Of a stretch of DNA of 27,364 nucleotides, positions 5,460 to 27,165 are shown in pieces. The notes beneath the pieces are model-generated. The model did no database searches, was not told the origin of the DNA, and saw only the letters and a program-made list of their open reading frames with translations. Each line of letters begins with the position of its first letter. Positions within the stretch are counted from its first letter, which is position 1. A program made the translations under genes and the position numbers. Source of the DNA: a virus (Duplodnaviria; Caudoviricetes); the IMG/VR virus record IMGVR_UViG_3300046001_004574, positions 1-27,364 of that record; one strand, written 5' to 3'.

Positions 5460-6352
5460 GTTTTATCGAGGAAATAAGGGATAGTAACGTATCAGCACAC
5501 GCTAAAATCGTTGCTATAACGATATGCTCATATAGAAACAGAAAGACAGGGCAATGCTTCCCCTCTCTACAGTTATTATCAGAAACTTTGCAATTATCAC
5601 AAAATACTATTCAAAAGTGTTTACGAGAGCTTGAAGCAGAAAAAATAATTAAAATCTCTAAGATTAGAAAATTTACATCGTCAATAAATTCTTATGTTTT
5701 TCTTACTGAAAATAAGGCTTTACCGAAAGTTGACACATCAAATATTGACGTGTCAAAAAATGATACGTCAAATATTGACACGTCAGTTGACACGTCAGTT
5801 GACACGTCAAACCATACCTCAAAATTTGACTACAAACCTATAGAACCGAGAGAACCTAGTGAACCTACTTTACCCCCTGCCCCCTTAGCAGGGGATTCAG
5901 GGGGGCGTTGTTTGAAAGTTTTTTATGAGAGTAATAATCGAGAGGATTTTAAAACAAAATGCTATGCAATCGCAAAGGCAAAGCGATTTTCAGAATCCGA
6001 GGCAGAAAAGCATTTTACAAATTTTGAGAATTATTGGTTAAATCCTGCCCTGCCACCGTCAAAAGCTTCGAAAAAAGATTGGCAACGTGCATTTGTTAAT
6101 TGGATTGCCAAGGATAAGCCTGCAAAGGTTAATAATTTTGATACAGCTGATTATATTTTGAGTCGAGCAAAGGAAAGATTAGGTGATTACATAGACCATG
6201 AAAGTGAAACAATAGATAGCAATTTGGTTTTTTTAAAACTGTTAAAAAATGGATACACAAAAGAGCAGATTTTTAGTGTATTTTTAAATATTATCAAAAA
6301 GCCCCCAGAAAATAAAATACACTCATGGGGCATCATCTTTCAGTATTTATAA
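5456..6352 (+). CDS. phage replication initiator (N-terminal winged HTH; functional analogue of lambda O)
   Basis: 'GQCFPSLQLLSETLQLSQNTIQKCLRELE' wHTH; low-complexity linker encoded by iterons; 'FENYW...KKDWQRAFVNWI' motif of phage initiator C-terminal domains. Confidence 0.85.
   Translation: MSFIEEIRDSNVSAHAKIVAITICSYRNRKTGQCFPSLQLLSETLQLSQNTIQKCLRELEAEKIIKISKIRKFTSSINSYVFLTENKALPKVDTSNIDVSKNDTSNIDTSVDTSVDTSNHTSKFDYKPIEPREPSEPTLPPAPLAGDSGGRCLKVFYESNNREDFKTKCYAIAKAKRFSESEAEKHFTNFENYWLNPALPPSKASKKDWQRAFVNWIAKDKPAKVNNFDTADYILSRAKERLGDYIDHESETIDSNLVFLKLLKNGYTKEQIFSVFLNIIKKPPENKIHSWGIIFQYL
5731..5809. repeat. iteron array, probable replication origin
   Basis: Six 10-mers of consensus TGACACGTCA at 5731, 5746 (inverted), 5761, 5776, 5788 and 5800 inside the initiator gene. 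Confidence 0.85.
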
Positions 6353-7059: not shown

Positions 7060-7080
7060 AAATCAAACATGGGGGAACGT

Positions 7081-7425
7081 ATGGCAGGCTATAAGTACGA
7101 TTGGGACGTAATTATAAAAACACTTGAAAGCGGTGTATCACGGCAGGACGTGTGTGAGATGTTTGGCATCAGGCGTGAATATCTTGTCCAGATGTTAGGT
7201 TATTTTAATTTAAGGCATCTGCAACTTAGGGTATCACAGCCAAGGCGTAAACCAACACCACCACCAAAGCCAAAATTTACCTGCCCTATCATGCAAAAAA
7301 TCGAAGTGATAAAACTGCTTGGCAATAAATTATCACCCCATGAAATCGCTGAAAAACTAAGTATCCGTCAAAAAGATGTTGATGTTATCATTGCAAGCGT
7401 GAGGGGCAAGAAATGCGTATCATAG
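7081..7425 (+). CDS. protein with two HTH-like segments, putative transcription regulator
   Basis: 'GVSRQDVCEMFGIRREYL' and 'LSPHEIAEKLSIRQKDVD' joined by a Pro/Lys linker; start reassigned to ATG 7081 after the GGGGGA SD. Confidence 0.65.
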   Translation: MAGYKYDWDVIIKTLESGVSRQDVCEMFGIRREYLVQMLGYFNLRHLQLRVSQPRRKPTPPPKPKFTCPIMQKIEVIKLLGNKLSPHEIAEKLSIRQKDVDVIIASVRGKKCVS

Positions 7426-7613
7426 CGATTATTTTGTCGGTGGTTATGTGTTTTGCGATTGTAACAGCAACCAATTCAGACGCAAGGGAATCACGGACTG
7501 TAAGGATATATAAACCTAAGCGACCACCAAAGTTTAAATCGTTTGTCGCTGGACGTGCAGTACACCCAAGACCAGTTATGAGTAAACGCAATTTACCGCC
7601 GTTAGATGATTAA
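7413..7613 (+). CDS. small protein with signal peptide or N-terminal TM helix and a basic Pro-rich tail
   Basis: GAGGGG SD; MR + hydrophobic stretch + 'NSDA' cleavage-like site; overlaps the upstream gene. Confidence 0.65.
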   Translation: MRIIAIILSVVMCFAIVTATNSDARESRTVRIYKPKRPPKFKSFVAGRAVHPRPVMSKRNLPPLDD

Positions 7614-7620
7614 AAACTTG

Positions 7621-7648
7621 TTGCTTTTTTCGTGAGAGTTGGTATAAG
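7621..7648 (+). promoter_or_regulatory. putative promoter of the structured RNA
   Basis: TTGCTT-16 nt-TATAAG with an extended -10 TG. Confidence 0.5.
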
Positions 7649-7654
7649 TAATTT

Positions 7655-7884
7655 AATACCTTACATTTTAAAACATATCGTACCCTTTGTATAACTATTG
7701 AAAAATTGACCGCAAAATCTGTTTTTTCAATGGTTAGTTAGGTGCGATATGTTCTACATAATTCACTTGTCACCTTGTATCAGTTATAAATATTTTTAGT
7801 TTTTGCGGACTGAATATTTAATAACTTTTGTGACAAGTGCTAACCAACTAAAAAAGCAGGGATTTTGCGTTCCTGCTTTTGTTG
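7655..7884 (+). ncRNA. candidate structured ncRNA: three hairpins with complementary loops
   Basis: Stems 7672-7684/7741-7753 and 7692-7705/7723-7736; 7764-7773/7830-7839 and 7782-7800/7809-7826; 7852-7862/7870-7880. G-U wobbles favour the plus strand. Ends are inferred. Confidence 0.6.
7850..7880. terminator. bidirectional intrinsic terminator (also hairpin 3 of the RNA candidate)
   Basis: AAAAAAGCAGG-N11-CCTGCTTTT; six U on the minus strand, just after the stop of 7893..8264. Confidence 0.75.
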
Positions 7885-7892
7885 AATTATCT

Positions 7893-8264
7893 TTATAAAA
7901 AATTTGACCGCCGACTTGGCGATAAAGTTTTTACTTTTCTTATTTTTATATCTTCATATCCGTATTTTTTTAAAATCTCCTCTAAGGTTTTACAACCTTT
8001 TAAATCAGGCGTTTTATTCAATAATTTTATTGCTTCTTTGTGTGTTTTAAAACTTATTTTTTGAACTTTAAACGCATCAATAGCGTCTTTCATGTCATAA
8101 AAATTATGCTCAAATTGGTGTTTATTATGCTTAAATTGGACAACAATTTTAGTCCATTTATGCCTTGTTTTATTAACTTCTTTAAATAAGACTTTTCTTC
8201 CACATATACACATTTCATTTGTTTCTTTGCACTTTTTACAAGTTTCGTCCCAATAATCAATCAT
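7893..8264 (-). CDS. hypothetical basic protein with an N-terminal Cys cluster
   Basis: 123 aa, 'CKKCKETNEMCIC'; GGAG SD and ATGA overlap with the upstream HTH gene. Confidence 0.7.
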   Translation of the reverse strand: MIDYWDETCKKCKETNEMCICGRKVLFKEVNKTRHKWTKIVVQFKHNKHQFEHNFYDMKDAIDAFKVQKISFKTHKEAIKLLNKTPDLKGCKTLEEILKKYGYEDIKIRKVKTLSPSRRSNFL

Positions 8265-8452
8265 TTCATTTCTCCAGTGATTTTTTGATAATATTCTGTT
8301 AATTTTTTCACGTCAGAATTACTCCGATGTGGCTTTGTGCGTCCAGTTACCCAGTTGCACAGTTGCATTTTAGGTATGCCAGTATCGCAAGCGATGCGAT
8401 ACCGTGTGATGCCTAGTGATTCTAGTGCTTGGATTGTGGCTTGTGCGGTCAT
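8261..8452 (-). CDS. small Cro/XRE-like HTH protein
   Basis: 'GITRYRIACDTGIPKMQLCNWVTGRTKP' HTH pattern; consensus promoter upstream. Confidence 0.8.
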   Translation of the reverse strand: MTAQATIQALESLGITRYRIACDTGIPKMQLCNWVTGRTKPHRSNSDVKKLTEYYQKITGEMK

Positions 8453-8527: not shown

Positions 8528-8589
8528 CTTCTGTTTTGCATTTTTTTTATTTTATTTGCATTTATTTTTTTATGTGGTATTTTTAGAGC

Positions 8590-8961
8590 ATGACAAGACA
8601 ATCAGATTATAAACCAGAATATGATGCACAGGTCATTGAGTGGCTTGCAGAGGGTAAGACGCTTGTTAATTTTGCTAAAAGTATTGGGGTTAATAACAGT
8701 ACAGTGTGGCGGTGGTCTAAAGAAGAGTCATCTTTTTGCAATGCTATAAAAGAAGGTCGTGACATTGCGAAAGATGTTCATTCTGAGCAATTTCTTGTTG
8801 ATAATTTAGAAAATCAAAAACTAAACAACGTTGTTACTGTTTTATACTGTCGCAATGTTCTGGGTATAAAAACCAAAGATGATTCAAATTTAGAAGACTT
8901 AACCAAAGCGTTAAATTCATTGACAATCACAAGAAAAATCATAGATGACAAGCCAGAATGA
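8590..8961 (+). CDS. terS: terminase small subunit
   Basis: 'RQSDYKPEY...LAEGKTLVNFAKSIGVNNSTVWRW...FCNAIKEGR' HTH; overlaps terL. Confidence 0.8.
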   Translation: MTRQSDYKPEYDAQVIEWLAEGKTLVNFAKSIGVNNSTVWRWSKEESSFCNAIKEGRDIAKDVHSEQFLVDNLENQKLNNVVTVLYCRNVLGIKTKDDSNLEDLTKALNSLTITRKIIDDKPE

Positions 8962-10171
8962 ATCGATTGTTGAAACGCCTCGTTGGTTCGTTCCATTCTT
9001 AAAACCAAAGATGTTTAAAGGCATTGCTGGAGGAAGGGGCAGTGGAAAATCACATACGGTAGGCGAACGAATGGCTGAATTGGTTGTGGCTGAAAAATGT
9101 GACCTTGTCTGTATTCGTGAAAAACAAAAATCACTTCAATTTTCTGCTAAAAAACTAATTGAATCAAAGATTAATAAACTTGGATTGCGTGAATTTTTTT
9201 ATGTGCAAGATAAGCTAATTAAAACAGTTTTTGGCAATGTTATCATATTTGAGGGTATGGCAAACCATACGAGCGACTCAATAAAATCACTTGAAAATTT
9301 TAAATATGGTTGGGTAGAAGAAGCACAAAATCTATCGCAAAAATCACTAGATTTATTATTGCCGACAATGCGTGCAAAAGATGCTGAAATATGGTTTACA
9401 TGGAATCCTAAGGATAAAAAAGACCCTGTGGATAAAATGTTTGTTGAAAACTTTGATGAAAAAATAATGACCTTTGCTCATGTCAATTATGATAGCAATC
9501 CGTGGTTTCCTGATACACTTAAAGTTCAAATGGAATATATGCGTACTCGTGACCCTGAAAAATACGCTCATATATGGCTTGGACAATATTGGAATAATAC
9601 AGAATCGCTTGTCTTTAAAAACTGGACGATTGATGAATTTGAAGCACCTCAAGACGCAATGTTTAGGCTTGGTGCTGATTGGGGATTCAGTATTGACCCT
9701 ACTGTTGCTATACGATGTTATATTAATGGTAAAACGCTATATATTGATTACGAAGCTTATCGAATAGGGTGCGAAATAACTGATATTCCTGAATTATTTA
9801 TGACCATTCCACAAGCTGAAAAATGGAATATGTGTGCTGATTCCGCACGACCCGAAACAATTTCTTATTTAAATAAACACGGATTCCCTAAGATAATTCA
9901 TTCTAAAAAAGGTGCAGGCTCAATAGAGGACGGAATCGCATGGCTTCAATCTTATAATATTGTTGTTCACCCTCGATGTGTAAAAACGATTGAAGAGTTA
10001 TCGACTTATTCATACAAAGAAGACAAGATGACAGGTGAAACATTGCCAATTCTTGACGATAAGAATAATCACGTCATTGACGCTTTACGTTACGCAACAG
10101 AAGCGTTAAGGCGTGCTGAAAAAACACAAGAAATAAACATATCAATCCCCCCTTTAAATACCCACTGGTGA
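8945..10171 (+). CDS. terL: terminase large subunit (PBSX/Sf6-like family)
   Basis: GGRGSGKS, 'WVEEAQ', 'TWNP', 'GADWGFSIDP', 'ADSARPETI', 'NNHVIDALRYA'. Confidence 0.96.
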   Translation: MTSQNESIVETPRWFVPFLKPKMFKGIAGGRGSGKSHTVGERMAELVVAEKCDLVCIREKQKSLQFSAKKLIESKINKLGLREFFYVQDKLIKTVFGNVIIFEGMANHTSDSIKSLENFKYGWVEEAQNLSQKSLDLLLPTMRAKDAEIWFTWNPKDKKDPVDKMFVENFDEKIMTFAHVNYDSNPWFPDTLKVQMEYMRTRDPEKYAHIWLGQYWNNTESLVFKNWTIDEFEAPQDAMFRLGADWGFSIDPTVAIRCYINGKTLYIDYEAYRIGCEITDIPELFMTIPQAEKWNMCADSARPETISYLNKHGFPKIIHSKKGAGSIEDGIAWLQSYNIVVHPRCVKTIEELSTYSYKEDKMTGETLPILDDKNNHVIDALRYATEALRRAEKTQEINISIPPLNTHW

Positions 10172-25002: not shown

Positions 25003-27165
25003 ATGACAACACAAATTAAAAAAGTTTATGAATTATTTTATGACAAAAACAATGCTTTGCTAGAAAACGGCTATATCTATATCGGATTTGCTAATCAGAA
25101 TCCAATAACGAATCCGATACAGACTTATTTTGATGCTGATTTAACGATACCTGCTTTACAACCATTGCGGACTGTTGGTGGTGCTATTTCTAACAATGGA
25201 AGTCCTGCAAACGTCTATATTGCCGTTTCTGATTACTCTATTGTCGTTCAGGATAAAAACAAAGTGACACTATATTCAACGCTTGAAAGAACGTCAGAAA
25301 CCGCAACCAGTGAATTAAATTATACCAATGGTTTATACACGGGCGGTATTCAACAGAATCTACAAGATGTCGTTGAGAGGGCTATTGATTTTAAAGACTT
25401 TGGTGCAAAAGGTGACGGCGTTACAGATGACACCCCTGCAATTAACGCATTATTAACACAAATAGGCGATGAGGGTGCAAGATTAAAATTCAGTGACGGA
25501 CAATATTTGTTAAAATCTGCTATTCGTTGGGGGCTTGCACAAAGATTGCAGGTTGATTTTAGTAAAAACGCAATCCTTGTGCCATTTACAAACACCTTTG
25601 ACATGATGACAATCGAGGGGTCAAGACCAAGCGGAACATATCAAAATTTAACCGCTGATGCTTTATCAGAAAATTATTCAATCACAACAGCAAGCACGAT
25701 TGCAGGGGCGAATGTTGGCGATTATTTAGGTATTCAATCATCAAAGTTATTAAGTGGTGCAAACTCAAAAGGCACAAAGCAATTTGTTTTAAAACGCATT
25801 GTTGCTATATCAGGCACGACTTATTATTTTAACGATATTTTAGGCTATGACTTTTTAACATCAGATACCGCCGAAGCAGGTCTTGCTGATATGCGAGATA
25901 ATTATTATTTTTATGGTATTAATATTAATAATCGAGATGCTGGCAATGTTCTATTTTCTCGTGGTCTTGTTATTAAGCAAGGGTGTAATATTCAAGTTGA
26001 CGGTATATCAGCTTATGGGTCAAAATTACCTTATGAACCATCAACAAGTTATGTTGGTAAAACAGCTTTGCTGTGTTCTGACACGCTCGATAGTGTATTT
26101 AGAGACGGAAAGCTAGAACAAATAGGCTATTATGGCGTTGCTGCACTCTTTGCAAGTGATAATTTAATATTCGACAATTTTACAGGTCGAGATATGCGAC
26201 ACTTGTTTGATATTACTTGGGCTTCAAATACAGGGGGCAACGAGGGCGAGCCAAACAATATAAAGTTTCAAAGTTCAACAGGTAGCATGACAACGGAATC
26301 ATGCTTTAGTACGCATGATACAGGGCGTTATATTGTTTTTGATAACTGTACAGCTGATACAGCAGGAATTGGTGGCGTTGGTAGTTATGGATTTTACTCT
26401 CGCAATGTTGGGTCACGCTTTTCTAAGTGTAAAGCGTTTCGTGCTACACTTGACGGTTTTAGAGCGGACACGGCTTCTTTGGCAACAAATTATGATGCTT
26501 GTGAAGCGGTTGAAAACCAAAGAGACGGATTTTTTATAAGCACATATGGACGCATGAACAATGTCATTGCAACAAGAAATGGTGAAGCAGGTATTGCATT
26601 TAATGGTGGTACGCTTAACAGTGCTAGAATTGTTGATAATGGCATATCAGGAACAAGTCCTTATGCTATTCAGTGTGGATATTATGCGAGTACAGAAACA
26701 TATAACATTTCTGACGTAGATGCCCCTGCTTCATCAACACAAACAATCGGTATTCGCTTTGAAACAGCATCAGGCGTTGACCCTAGAAATAATGTGTTTA
26801 TCAGTGGTAAAAATATCTTGACTGGATATGGCAACAATCTCTATTCTGTTTCAAGTGGTGATAATGCTGAAACACCAATTACAAGCGGAAACATTGCAAC
26901 AGCAGTGGGAACATCAAGTAACCCTGTTTATGGACGTGCAACACTAACAGCAGGGGCGGTGACAGTCTCAACTACAGCAGTTCGTGATTATAACCCTGCA
27001 AGTGGAACGACTGGTAAATTTACAAGTAAGATTACGCCAAAAGCTATTTCATTTACTAATGCAGGTGCTTTATATACAAGTGCAATAACCGATGCGACAA
27101 GTTTTGATGTTAACTCAACCAATGGTGCAGGAACACAAGAATTTGAATACGAAGTTTTAGTATAA
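25003..27165 (+). CDS. tailspike / receptor-binding protein with a right-handed beta-helix
   Basis: N-terminal head-binding-like domain ('LENGYIYIG..NQNP.TNPI..YFD', 'QPLRT.GG', 'DYSIVVQDKN'); 'KDFGAKGDGVTDDTPAINA' pectate-lyase-3-type start; beta-helix repeats. Confidence 0.9.
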   Translation: MTTQIKKVYELFYDKNNALLENGYIYIGFANQNPITNPIQTYFDADLTIPALQPLRTVGGAISNNGSPANVYIAVSDYSIVVQDKNKVTLYSTLERTSETATSELNYTNGLYTGGIQQNLQDVVERAIDFKDFGAKGDGVTDDTPAINALLTQIGDEGARLKFSDGQYLLKSAIRWGLAQRLQVDFSKNAILVPFTNTFDMMTIEGSRPSGTYQNLTADALSENYSITTASTIAGANVGDYLGIQSSKLLSGANSKGTKQFVLKRIVAISGTTYYFNDILGYDFLTSDTAEAGLADMRDNYYFYGININNRDAGNVLFSRGLVIKQGCNIQVDGISAYGSKLPYEPSTSYVGKTALLCSDTLDSVFRDGKLEQIGYYGVAALFASDNLIFDNFTGRDMRHLFDITWASNTGGNEGEPNNIKFQSSTGSMTTESCFSTHDTGRYIVFDNCTADTAGIGGVGSYGFYSRNVGSRFSKCKAFRATLDGFRADTASLATNYDACEAVENQRDGFFISTYGRMNNVIATRNGEAGIAFNGGTLNSARIVDNGISGTSPYAIQCGYYASTETYNISDVDAPASSTQTIGIRFETASGVDPRNNVFISGKNILTGYGNNLYSVSSGDNAETPITSGNIATAVGTSSNPVYGRATLTAGAVTVSTTAVRDYNPASGTTGKFTSKITPKAISFTNAGALYTSAITDATSFDVNSTNGAGTQEFEYEVLV

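What the first reader, a model, noticed from the sequence alone, without database searches (positions are those of the whole stretch)
7655..7884. Candidate new phage ncRNA: two parallel long hairpins with exactly complementary (kissing) loops
Seen: hairpin 1 has a 13-bp outer stem (AACATATCGTACC 7672-7684 / GGTGCGATATGTT 7741-7753), a 14-bp inner stem (7692-7705 / 7723-7736) and apical CCGCAAAA (7710-7717). Hairpin 2 has a 10-bp outer stem (CACTTGTCAC 7764-7773 / GTGACAAGTG 7830-7839), an inner stem (7782-7800 / 7809-7826, with bulges) and apical TTTTGCGG (7801-7808), the perfect 8-nt reverse complement of loop 1. The stems differ in sequence but share architecture, and their imperfect pairs are mostly G-U on the plus strand. 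The unit lies between a promoter-like sequence and a terminator. Inference: a standalone RNA of about 230 nt that forms an intramolecular kissing loop or hand-in-hand oligomers. The analogy is the loop-loop multimerisation of phi29 pRNA, although P22-like phages are not known to need a packaging RNA. It lies about 700 bp upstream of terS. I do not recognise it as a known family.
Basis: partly seen in the sequence, partly recalled or inferred. Interest (0 to 1): 0.85.

Follow-up and report, generated by a model that had tools for sequence, protein, structure and literature searches.

The report
Swappable-hairpin phage RNA, flipped tip
An uncultured lake phage carries, ahead of its DNA-packaging genes, a likely small RNA made of long hairpins that relatives add, drop or move one at a time, and the two matching loop tips most likely arose when one tip was inverted, so the proposed 'kissing' is possible but probably not the RNA's core job.

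Summary
The two long hairpins and their 8-base complementary tips are real and beyond chance. They lie between a promoter-like site and a terminator-like hairpin in a P22-like phage, fold better on the plus strand, and match no Rfam family. No transcript was seen. Contig pieces of relatives change the reading: two replace hairpin 1 by a mini-hairpin yet keep hairpin 2, one carries hairpin 2 in other flanks, and one contig with both hairpins has an uncompensated G7807C in tip 2. Tip 2 is modelled as a four-base loop on U·G pairs; the terminator has a similar tip; tip 1 is their inverted copy and the only part that folds better on the opposite strand. Best reading: a modular small RNA with hairpin 2 as core and hairpin 1 as an optional unit whose tip was flipped. 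Functional kissing stays a rival (0.2); a pRNA role is unlikely. No deeper homologues could be fetched, so covariation is untested. The scan had no note on this sequence; it noted a similar theme on other DNA (e1-9736739).

The parts
7621..7648 (+). Promoter-like site: TTGCTT, 16 bases, extended -10 TG-n-TATAAG
   Evidence: Same design as the site before terS at 8556 (2 of 24 matches of a loose pattern in G001; most others lie in genes). Region kept in pieces of X19 (7596-7661, 2 differences), X20 and X21 (7584-7646, 2 differences). Not listed by the consensus scan because the last T of the -10 is missing.
7655..7671 (+). Predicted start and unpaired leader; 7662-7666 repeats the TACAT of 7755-7759
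   Evidence: Start inferred from spacing to the -10; unpaired.
7672..7753 (+). Hairpin 1, optional module: 13-pair lower stem, 7x4 internal loop (7685-7691/7737-7740), 14-pair upper stem
   Evidence: 7662-7754 is replaced by 13 other letters in contigs of X19 and X20.
7708..7719 (+). Tip of hairpin 1 (loop 7710-7717), inverted relative to the tips of hairpin 2 and the terminator
   Evidence: 7697-7731 folds at -3.9 on plus and -5.1 on minus, the only one of 5 parts tested that prefers minus.
7754..7763 (+). Ten-base linker; in relatives its first bases form the 3' arm of a mini-hairpin
   Evidence: Read by eye from the joint letters and loose ends.
7764..7839 (+). Hairpin 2, core module: 10-pair lower stem, internal loop (7774-7781/7827-7829), bulged upper stem, tip 7799-7810
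   Evidence: Kept in X19 (7755-7865, 2 differences), X18 (7758-7839, 0 differences, other flanks) and X7 (2 differences).
7850..7884 (+). Terminator-like hairpin (12 pairs, 2 G-U), A run before and U4 run after, loop UUUGC; 7860-7869 is also complementary to 7711-7720
   Evidence: X19 has a G-C pair in place of one G-U but a weaker U tail; an X20 contig runs from it straight into sequence matching 8546-8575 (compared).
7069..7613 (+). Context upstream: 118-residue HTH-like gene (7069-7425) and 66-residue ORF (7413-7613), after rusA
7893..8452 (-). Context downstream: convergent two-gene cassette (63-residue HTH regulator, 123-residue unknown), apparently absent in some relatives
   Evidence: own promoter 8527-8499, 11 of 12 consensus; X19 and X20 contigs diverge after the terminator.
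8556..8961 (+). Context: promoter-like site 8556-8579 and terS (8590-8961), start of a P22-like virion operon

Best explanation
This is likely a stand-alone phage small RNA built from long hairpin modules that differ between relatives, with hairpin 2 as the shared core and hairpin 1 as an optional unit whose tip was probably inverted during replication, which would make the two loops complementary as a by-product. Shown: the stems, the complementarity, the loss of hairpin 1 and the new flanks of hairpin 2 in relatives, and one uncompensated tip change. Inferred: transcription from 7655 to about 7884; common descent of the two hairpins; the inversion. Proposed and untested: the RNA works in trans, each nuclease-resistant stem presenting a U-rich UUUUGC-type tip and a CC(U)UUGUAU internal-loop strand as docking sites for a host factor or host RNA, in the way multi-hairpin sponge or antisense RNAs do. 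In this genotype loop 1 can pair with tip 2, but the RNA does not need that contact.
For: Fold z -9.2; 4 of 5 parts and both whole hairpins fold better on plus, with 7 G-U pairs in the plus model. Promoter design shared with terS and kept in three relatives. Hairpin 1 replaced by a mini-hairpin in X19 and X20; hairpin 2 identical over 82 bases in other flanks in X18. The X19 and X20 mini-hairpins differ at two central letters so that each is the reverse complement of the other (read by eye), which is what a loop inversion gives; template switching is reported to invert loops of up to 7-8 bases (PMC8794818, passages). Read on the minus strand, tip 1 has the same build as tip 2 (G-C, then an A-U-type pair, two U·G pairs, UUGC loop) and folds better. 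G7807C in X7 is uncompensated and cuts the modelled loop duplex from -9.4 to -4.8 kcal/mol. The X18 mini-hairpin has one two-sided and one one-sided compatible change against X19, and a loop that starts UUUUG (by eye). The hairpins share a 6-base word at the same place in the internal loop (1,487 of 100,000 random pairs do).
Against: No transcript evidence. All comparative evidence is a handful of short, low-depth contig pieces (depth 3 to 6) from 8 runs laid; G7807C is one contig, just above the tool's error warning of depth 5, and X13 (7621-7806) and both IMG/VR copies are identical to the window. Whole-hairpin similarity is only borderline (score reached by 17 of 300 shuffles), so paralogy is not proven. 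The X19/X20 difference could be two point changes. An inverted tip could have been kept because it kisses. The U tail after the terminator is short, and weaker in X19. No target or partner was found: the tips pair with the phage's own start regions no better than background; the internal loops pair better (means -5.8 and -5.0 against -4.1 and -4.0), as any CCUU seed would.
Confidence: 0.45

Rival explanations
2. The unit is a leader or attenuator of the late region, like the short transcript between the lambdoid late promoter and its terminator: hairpins or loop 1 would weaken the terminator and let transcription run on to terS.
For: Order rusA, HTH gene, promoter, short terminated transcript, terS; an X20 contig joins the terminator to the terS upstream region; loop 1 can form 10 pairs with 7860-7869, duplex -14.4. 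Such transcripts can become regulatory RNAs (StxS, PMC7547250, abstract).
Against: terS has its own promoter-like site, also in the X20 piece; in the window a convergent cassette intervenes. Opening the terminator costs 8.3 kcal/mol, and tip 2 is made first and is cheaper to open. Relatives without hairpin 1 lack this switch. HK022 put is about 70 bases for both stems (PMC9378689, passages), against 168 here.
Confidence: 0.13
3. The palindromes act as DNA: cruciforms or single-stranded hairpins that serve as recombination and module-exchange points at a variable junction, with little RNA function.
For: Breakpoints among relatives fall at the hairpin edges and the terminator; loop flips are DNA events; promoter plus stem-loop cassettes mediate shuffling in T4-type phages (PMC2839356, passages). 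With DNA parameters the strand preference is small (-16.9/-14.9 and -12.0/-11.0).
Against: One copy only in a terminally repeated 41.9-kb genome, whereas those cassettes are dispersed and flank genes; no tyrosine integrase or IS110 recombinase; G-U bias, promoter and terminator suit an RNA.
Confidence: 0.1
4. The hairpins are RNase III-type processing or stabilising signals, as in T7, that cut or protect a longer transcript.
For: Each is a long helix with an asymmetric internal loop, the build of T7 sites (recalled; lead also in e1-6262540).
Against: No gene lies between promoter and terminator to be processed (only short reading frames); does not explain the tips.
Confidence: 0.07

Closest known systems
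Cuckoo RNA family of Alphaproteobacteria (PMC4615179, passages)
   Same: Small RNA of a variable number of adjacent hairpins with variable stems and a shared loop motif.
   Different: Cuckoo hairpins are 24-50 bases with CCUCCUCCC in each loop; these are 76 and 82 bases, with UUUUGC-type tips, and the C/U-rich word is in an internal loop. No Rfam match.
Loop-loop antisense pairs with U-turn loops (CopA/CopT, RNA I/RNA II; PMC4485353 and PMC4872101, passages)
   Same: Bulged hairpins with complementary loops, a YUNR sequence in one of them.
   Different: Those partners come from opposite strands and match along their length; here both are on one strand and match only at the tips, and no regulated gene was found.
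Lambdoid PR'-tR' transcript and StxS (PMC7547250, abstract)
   Same: Short terminated transcript between the early region and late genes; about the same size class.
   Different: terS has its own promoter-like site; no Q-type antiterminator was identified; modular long hairpins.
PeSL cassettes of T4-type phages (PMC2839356, passages)
   Same: Promoter with stem-loop at a variable junction where neighbours are exchanged.
   Different: Single copy, no gene inside the unit; what is exchanged is the hairpin itself.
phi29 pRNA (PMC3902900, passages; other features recalled)
   Same: Phage RNA with two complementary loops.
   Different: No three-way junction, a terS/terL motor of the P22 type, and one loop dispensable in relatives.
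GOLLD and ROOL (10.1101/2024.12.08.627333, passages)
   Same: Phage-borne RNAs of unknown function with kissing loops.
   Different: Much larger and multibranched, with covariation support; no Rfam hit here.

Membership tests
Any Rfam 15 family | Score at or above the gathering threshold | tested here: not met
   0 matches in the window; 6 matches at E 0.14 to 8.7 in 7500-8000, all far below threshold.
phi29 pRNA | Three-way junction carrying the two hand loops | tested here: not met
   Two unbranched hairpins in series.
phi29 pRNA | Both interlocking loops always present and matched | tested here: not met
   Hairpin 1 absent in X19 and X20 contigs; G7807C in X7.
phi29 pRNA | Binds the prohead and is needed for packaging | not testable with these tools
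   Needs bench work.
Functional kissing-loop RNA | Complementary, accessible apical loops | tested here: met
   8 of 8 pairs; 2.1 kcal/mol to open both; tip 2 half closed in the model.
Functional kissing-loop RNA | Compensatory changes between the loops | tested here: inconclusive
   One variant contig spans both tips and is uncompensated; no diverged homologue with both hairpins was found.
Cuckoo RNA | CCUCCUCCC in each hairpin loop; hairpins 24-50 bases | tested here: not met
   Sequence against PMC4615179.
Cuckoo RNA | Variable number of adjacent hairpin modules | tested here: met
HK022 put | About 70 bases, two tightly joined stems | tested here: not met
   168 bases with a 10-base linker (PMC9378689).
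HK022 put | Suppresses termination in cis | not testable with these tools
   Needs a reporter.
PeSL cassette | Dispersed copies flanking accessory genes | tested here: not met
   One copy in G001.
Bridge RNA (IS110) or attC-type site | Cognate recombinase in the element or genome | tested here: not met
   0 of 1 genome for PF01548 and PF00589; a host enzyme is not excluded.
Phage small RNA in general | Discrete transcript | not testable with these tools
   No RNA reads could be laid on the stretch.

The most novel reading that the evidence does not exclude
This would be a new phage RNA family and a natural route by which complementary loops arise in one mutational step.
Probability: 0.2. Interest if true: 0.75.

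Novelty: new variant of a known kind. Interest (0 to 1): 0.42.

Why it matters
It is an uncatalogued, strongly folded candidate phage RNA whose hairpins are exchanged as units between relatives, so it offers a small natural series (with and without hairpin 1, matched and mismatched tips) for testing what the RNA does. It is also a warning for RNA discovery: exact loop complementarity in one genome can come from inversion of a palindrome's tip and is not by itself evidence of kissing. If kissing proves real, it would show a tertiary contact being born in one step.

Tried and rejected
Homologue searches found only the two identical IMG/VR copies (L001, L002). blastn: no match in phages, 4 matches at E about 3 in plasmids. 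Viral patterns: loop-loop, 120 loci seen of about 620 estimated, of which I inspected the 40 best-folding rows, none with this build; internal loop plus tip 2, 68 loci, 2 own and 66 unrelated; terminator, 3 loci, 2 own and 1 unrelated terminator; base of hairpin 2, 7 loci, 2 own; promoter, 34 loci, 2 own. Metagenome pattern: 9 loci, none related. GTDB: lower stem of hairpin 2, 49 loci, none related, many heptamer-repeat palindromes; HTH gene, none. Protein routes: terL gave 2 identical loci and 80 loci at 60% or less; those 80 plus 2 GenBank loci hold 26 long hairpins, 0 in tandem and 0 with the tip or internal-loop word. No RNA holder listed among 21 runs; this says nothing about expression. 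Small-share runs are not used as habitat evidence. MazF-site idea for the UACAU linkers (site recalled): TACAT occurs 33 times against 29.7 expected in coding strands, rank 674 of 966; a codon shuffle gives 45.2 (3 of 200 as low) but TACA is depleted alike, so rejected. The tip is not a general terminator loop of this phage: 4 of 31 short strong hairpins have TTGC or GCAA in the loop. CsrA decoy: no GGA in an open loop apart from the paired end of tip 2 (consensus recalled). Small ORF in the unit: none convincing. Cluster membership of the homologous proteins could not be looked up, so their sources are unknown. No covariance model was built, because only one sequence type was in hand. Paper searches listed no description of this RNA; the library lacks most subscription papers, and no supplements were read, which may hold candidate lists (for example PMC8040213, search listing only).

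Full report
Context. The window is part of a P22-like podophage of about 36% G+C: replication genes, rusA, then terS, terL, portal, scaffold, coat and tail genes. A 41,876-base record (G001) is identical over 27,361 bases and has a 126-base terminal repeat, so it is probably complete. It has no tyrosine integrase and no IS110 recombinase. The host is unknown; a GcrA-like protein (score 0.88, a lead only) hints at Alphaproteobacteria, where many promoters lack the last T of the -10 element (PMC7703639, search listing). The best DNA holders are lake metagenomes, 5 of 21 marked as possible sources.

Observation. The unit folds far better than shuffles (z -9.2), and in a scan of 546 tiles of the window the tiles at 7751 and 7651 rank first and third. 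An 8-base match between such tips arises in 210 of 200,000 random draws. Rfam has nothing. Tip 2 is modelled as a UUGC loop on two U·G pairs. The terminator carries a third copy of the motif, so loop 1 is complementary to two places, not one.

Is it an RNA? This is inferred, not shown. The plus strand folds better for both hairpins and the terminator. A promoter-like site at 7621-7648 has the same design as the one before terS and is kept in contig pieces of X19, X20 and X21 (X19 and X21 are one study). The stem of the terminator gains a G-C pair in X19. Against this, the consensus scan listed neither signal, the U tail is short and weaker in X19, and expression could not be tested.

Relatives. 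Collection searches gave only identical copies (see Tried and rejected), so the comparative evidence is contig pieces from 8 of the 21 listed runs. In one search, X19 (1,034-base contig, depth 5.7) and X20 (225 bases, depth 3.2) join 7661 to 7755 through 13 other letters: hairpin 1 is absent, and X19 continues through all of hairpin 2 to the terminator. X18 (629 bases, depth 4) has 7758-7839 with no difference but other sequence on both sides, with another TACAT-type linker behind it. X13 matches 7621-7806 exactly. Another X20 contig runs from the terminator into sequence matching 8546-8575, so the convergent cassette is optional; the two X20 contigs need not be one genome. In one search, X7 (383 bases, depth 5.3) spans both hairpins with G7807C and T7828G and no change in loop 1; X21 keeps the promoter and then diverges; X11 and X16 add only identical or unconvincing pieces. 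Hairpin 2 is thus the shared part and hairpin 1 is optional. The direction of change (gain here or loss there) is not rooted.

Origin of the complementarity. The letters that replace hairpin 1 form a mini-hairpin with the linker. The X19 and X20 forms differ at two central letters and are reverse complements of each other, as expected from a loop inversion (read by eye; two point changes would also do it). Template switching is reported to invert loops up to 7-8 bases long (PMC8794818, passages). Hairpin 1 has its internal-loop word in the same orientation as hairpin 2 but its tip in the opposite one. The part above its last G-U pair is the only one of 5 parts that folds better on the minus strand (-5.1 against -3.9), where it has the same build as tip 2. 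An inversion of the tip in a related module explains all of this in one step. Weak points: whole-hairpin similarity is borderline (17 of 300 shuffles), the energy gap is small, and an inverted tip could since have been selected.

Kissing. It is feasible on paper (duplex -9.4, opening 2.1 kcal/mol), and tip 2 has a YUNR sequence typical of loop-loop recognition (PMC4485353, passages). It cannot be essential to the core RNA if X19-type phages lack loop 1, and G7807C halves the modelled duplex. In a selection for kissing pairs, 5 to 7 pairs were found and longer helices gave no gain (PMC4872101, passages). I give functional kissing 0.2.

Mechanism. I commit to a trans-acting modular small RNA (0.45): stable stems display a repeated U-rich tip and a shared C/U-rich internal-loop strand as docking sites for a host factor or RNA. 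This step is proposed from anatomy and analogy only. A test on 63 start regions of the phage's own genes gave no target for the tips, and only the generic affinity of a CCUU seed for the internal loops and leader. The genome carries a Tad2-like gene and a weak Acb2/Tad1-like match, so a counter-defence role is plausible but has no direct support. Rivals are a late leader or attenuator (0.13), DNA-level exchange points (0.10), RNase III signals (0.07) and pRNA (0.02).

Comparison and novelty. It works most like the modular cuckoo RNAs or hairpin antisense RNAs but fails their defining features, and it is not pRNA, put, PeSL, GOLLD or ROOL (membership table). Tandem long hairpins of this kind were absent from 82 loci of related packaging modules (686,647 bases). 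Paper searches listed no description. Earlier notes of this scan hold nothing on this genome or sequence; a word search returned a note on swappable hairpin modules before the terminase genes of other freshwater phages (e1-9736739), which gave the PeSL lead and is not independent support. Papers seen: passages of 10.1101/2024.12.08.627333, PMC4872101, PMC4485353, PMC8794818, PMC9378689, PMC12197685, PMC4615179, PMC3902900 and PMC2839356; abstract and opening of PMC7547250; search listing only for PMC7703639 and PMC8040213. T7 RNase III sites, the MazF site, the CsrA consensus and pRNA details beyond one search are recalled.

Verdict. A real, uncatalogued, probably transcribed modular hairpin element; the kissing-loop headline is possible but not supported as its core function. 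New variant of a known kind, interest 0.42.

Noticed in passing
G001 coding strands: Strong avoidance of several restriction-type words: GGATG 0 against 24.4 expected, GCAGC 3 against 28.2, GCGGC 2 against 22.8, CCAGG 0 against 13.9, CCTGG 0 against 12.7, CTGAG 1 against 12.5. This could help find the host.
   Followed up: no
L284:9067-9594 and 9663-9899: Tad2-like gene (E 9e-26) convergent with a weak Acb2/Tad1 hairpin-domain match (E 4e-5, below cut-off), right after the lysis genes.
   Followed up: partly
L284:14723-15283 (minus): GcrA-like protein by language-model features (0.88, a lead; no Pfam hit), a hint of an alphaproteobacterial host.
   Followed up: partly
L284:10617-11258 (minus): vWA/TerF-like gene beyond a gap of about 1 kb that holds only short ORFs.
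   Followed up: no
window 7893-8452 (minus): Two-gene cassette (HTH regulator and 123-residue unknown protein) with a near-consensus promoter, inserted between the RNA's terminator and the terS promoter; absent in an X20 contig.
   Followed up: partly
window about 5730-5810 and 5873-5904: Repeated GACACGTCA-type words and strong hairpins inside the replication initiator gene, likely origin iterons.
   Followed up: no
window 7451-7457: A further TTTTGCG in the 66-residue ORF just upstream; 3 of the 6 plus-strand copies in the window lie within 420 bases.
   Followed up: no
L298-L346: Many long palindromes built from CACTTGT-type heptamer repeats in Pyrinomonadaceae, Tepidisphaeraceae and other soil genomes; unrelated to this element, REP-like in appearance.
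   Followed up: no
window 25003-27165: Tailspike with pectate-lyase-like and K1-lyase-like domains.
   Followed up: no
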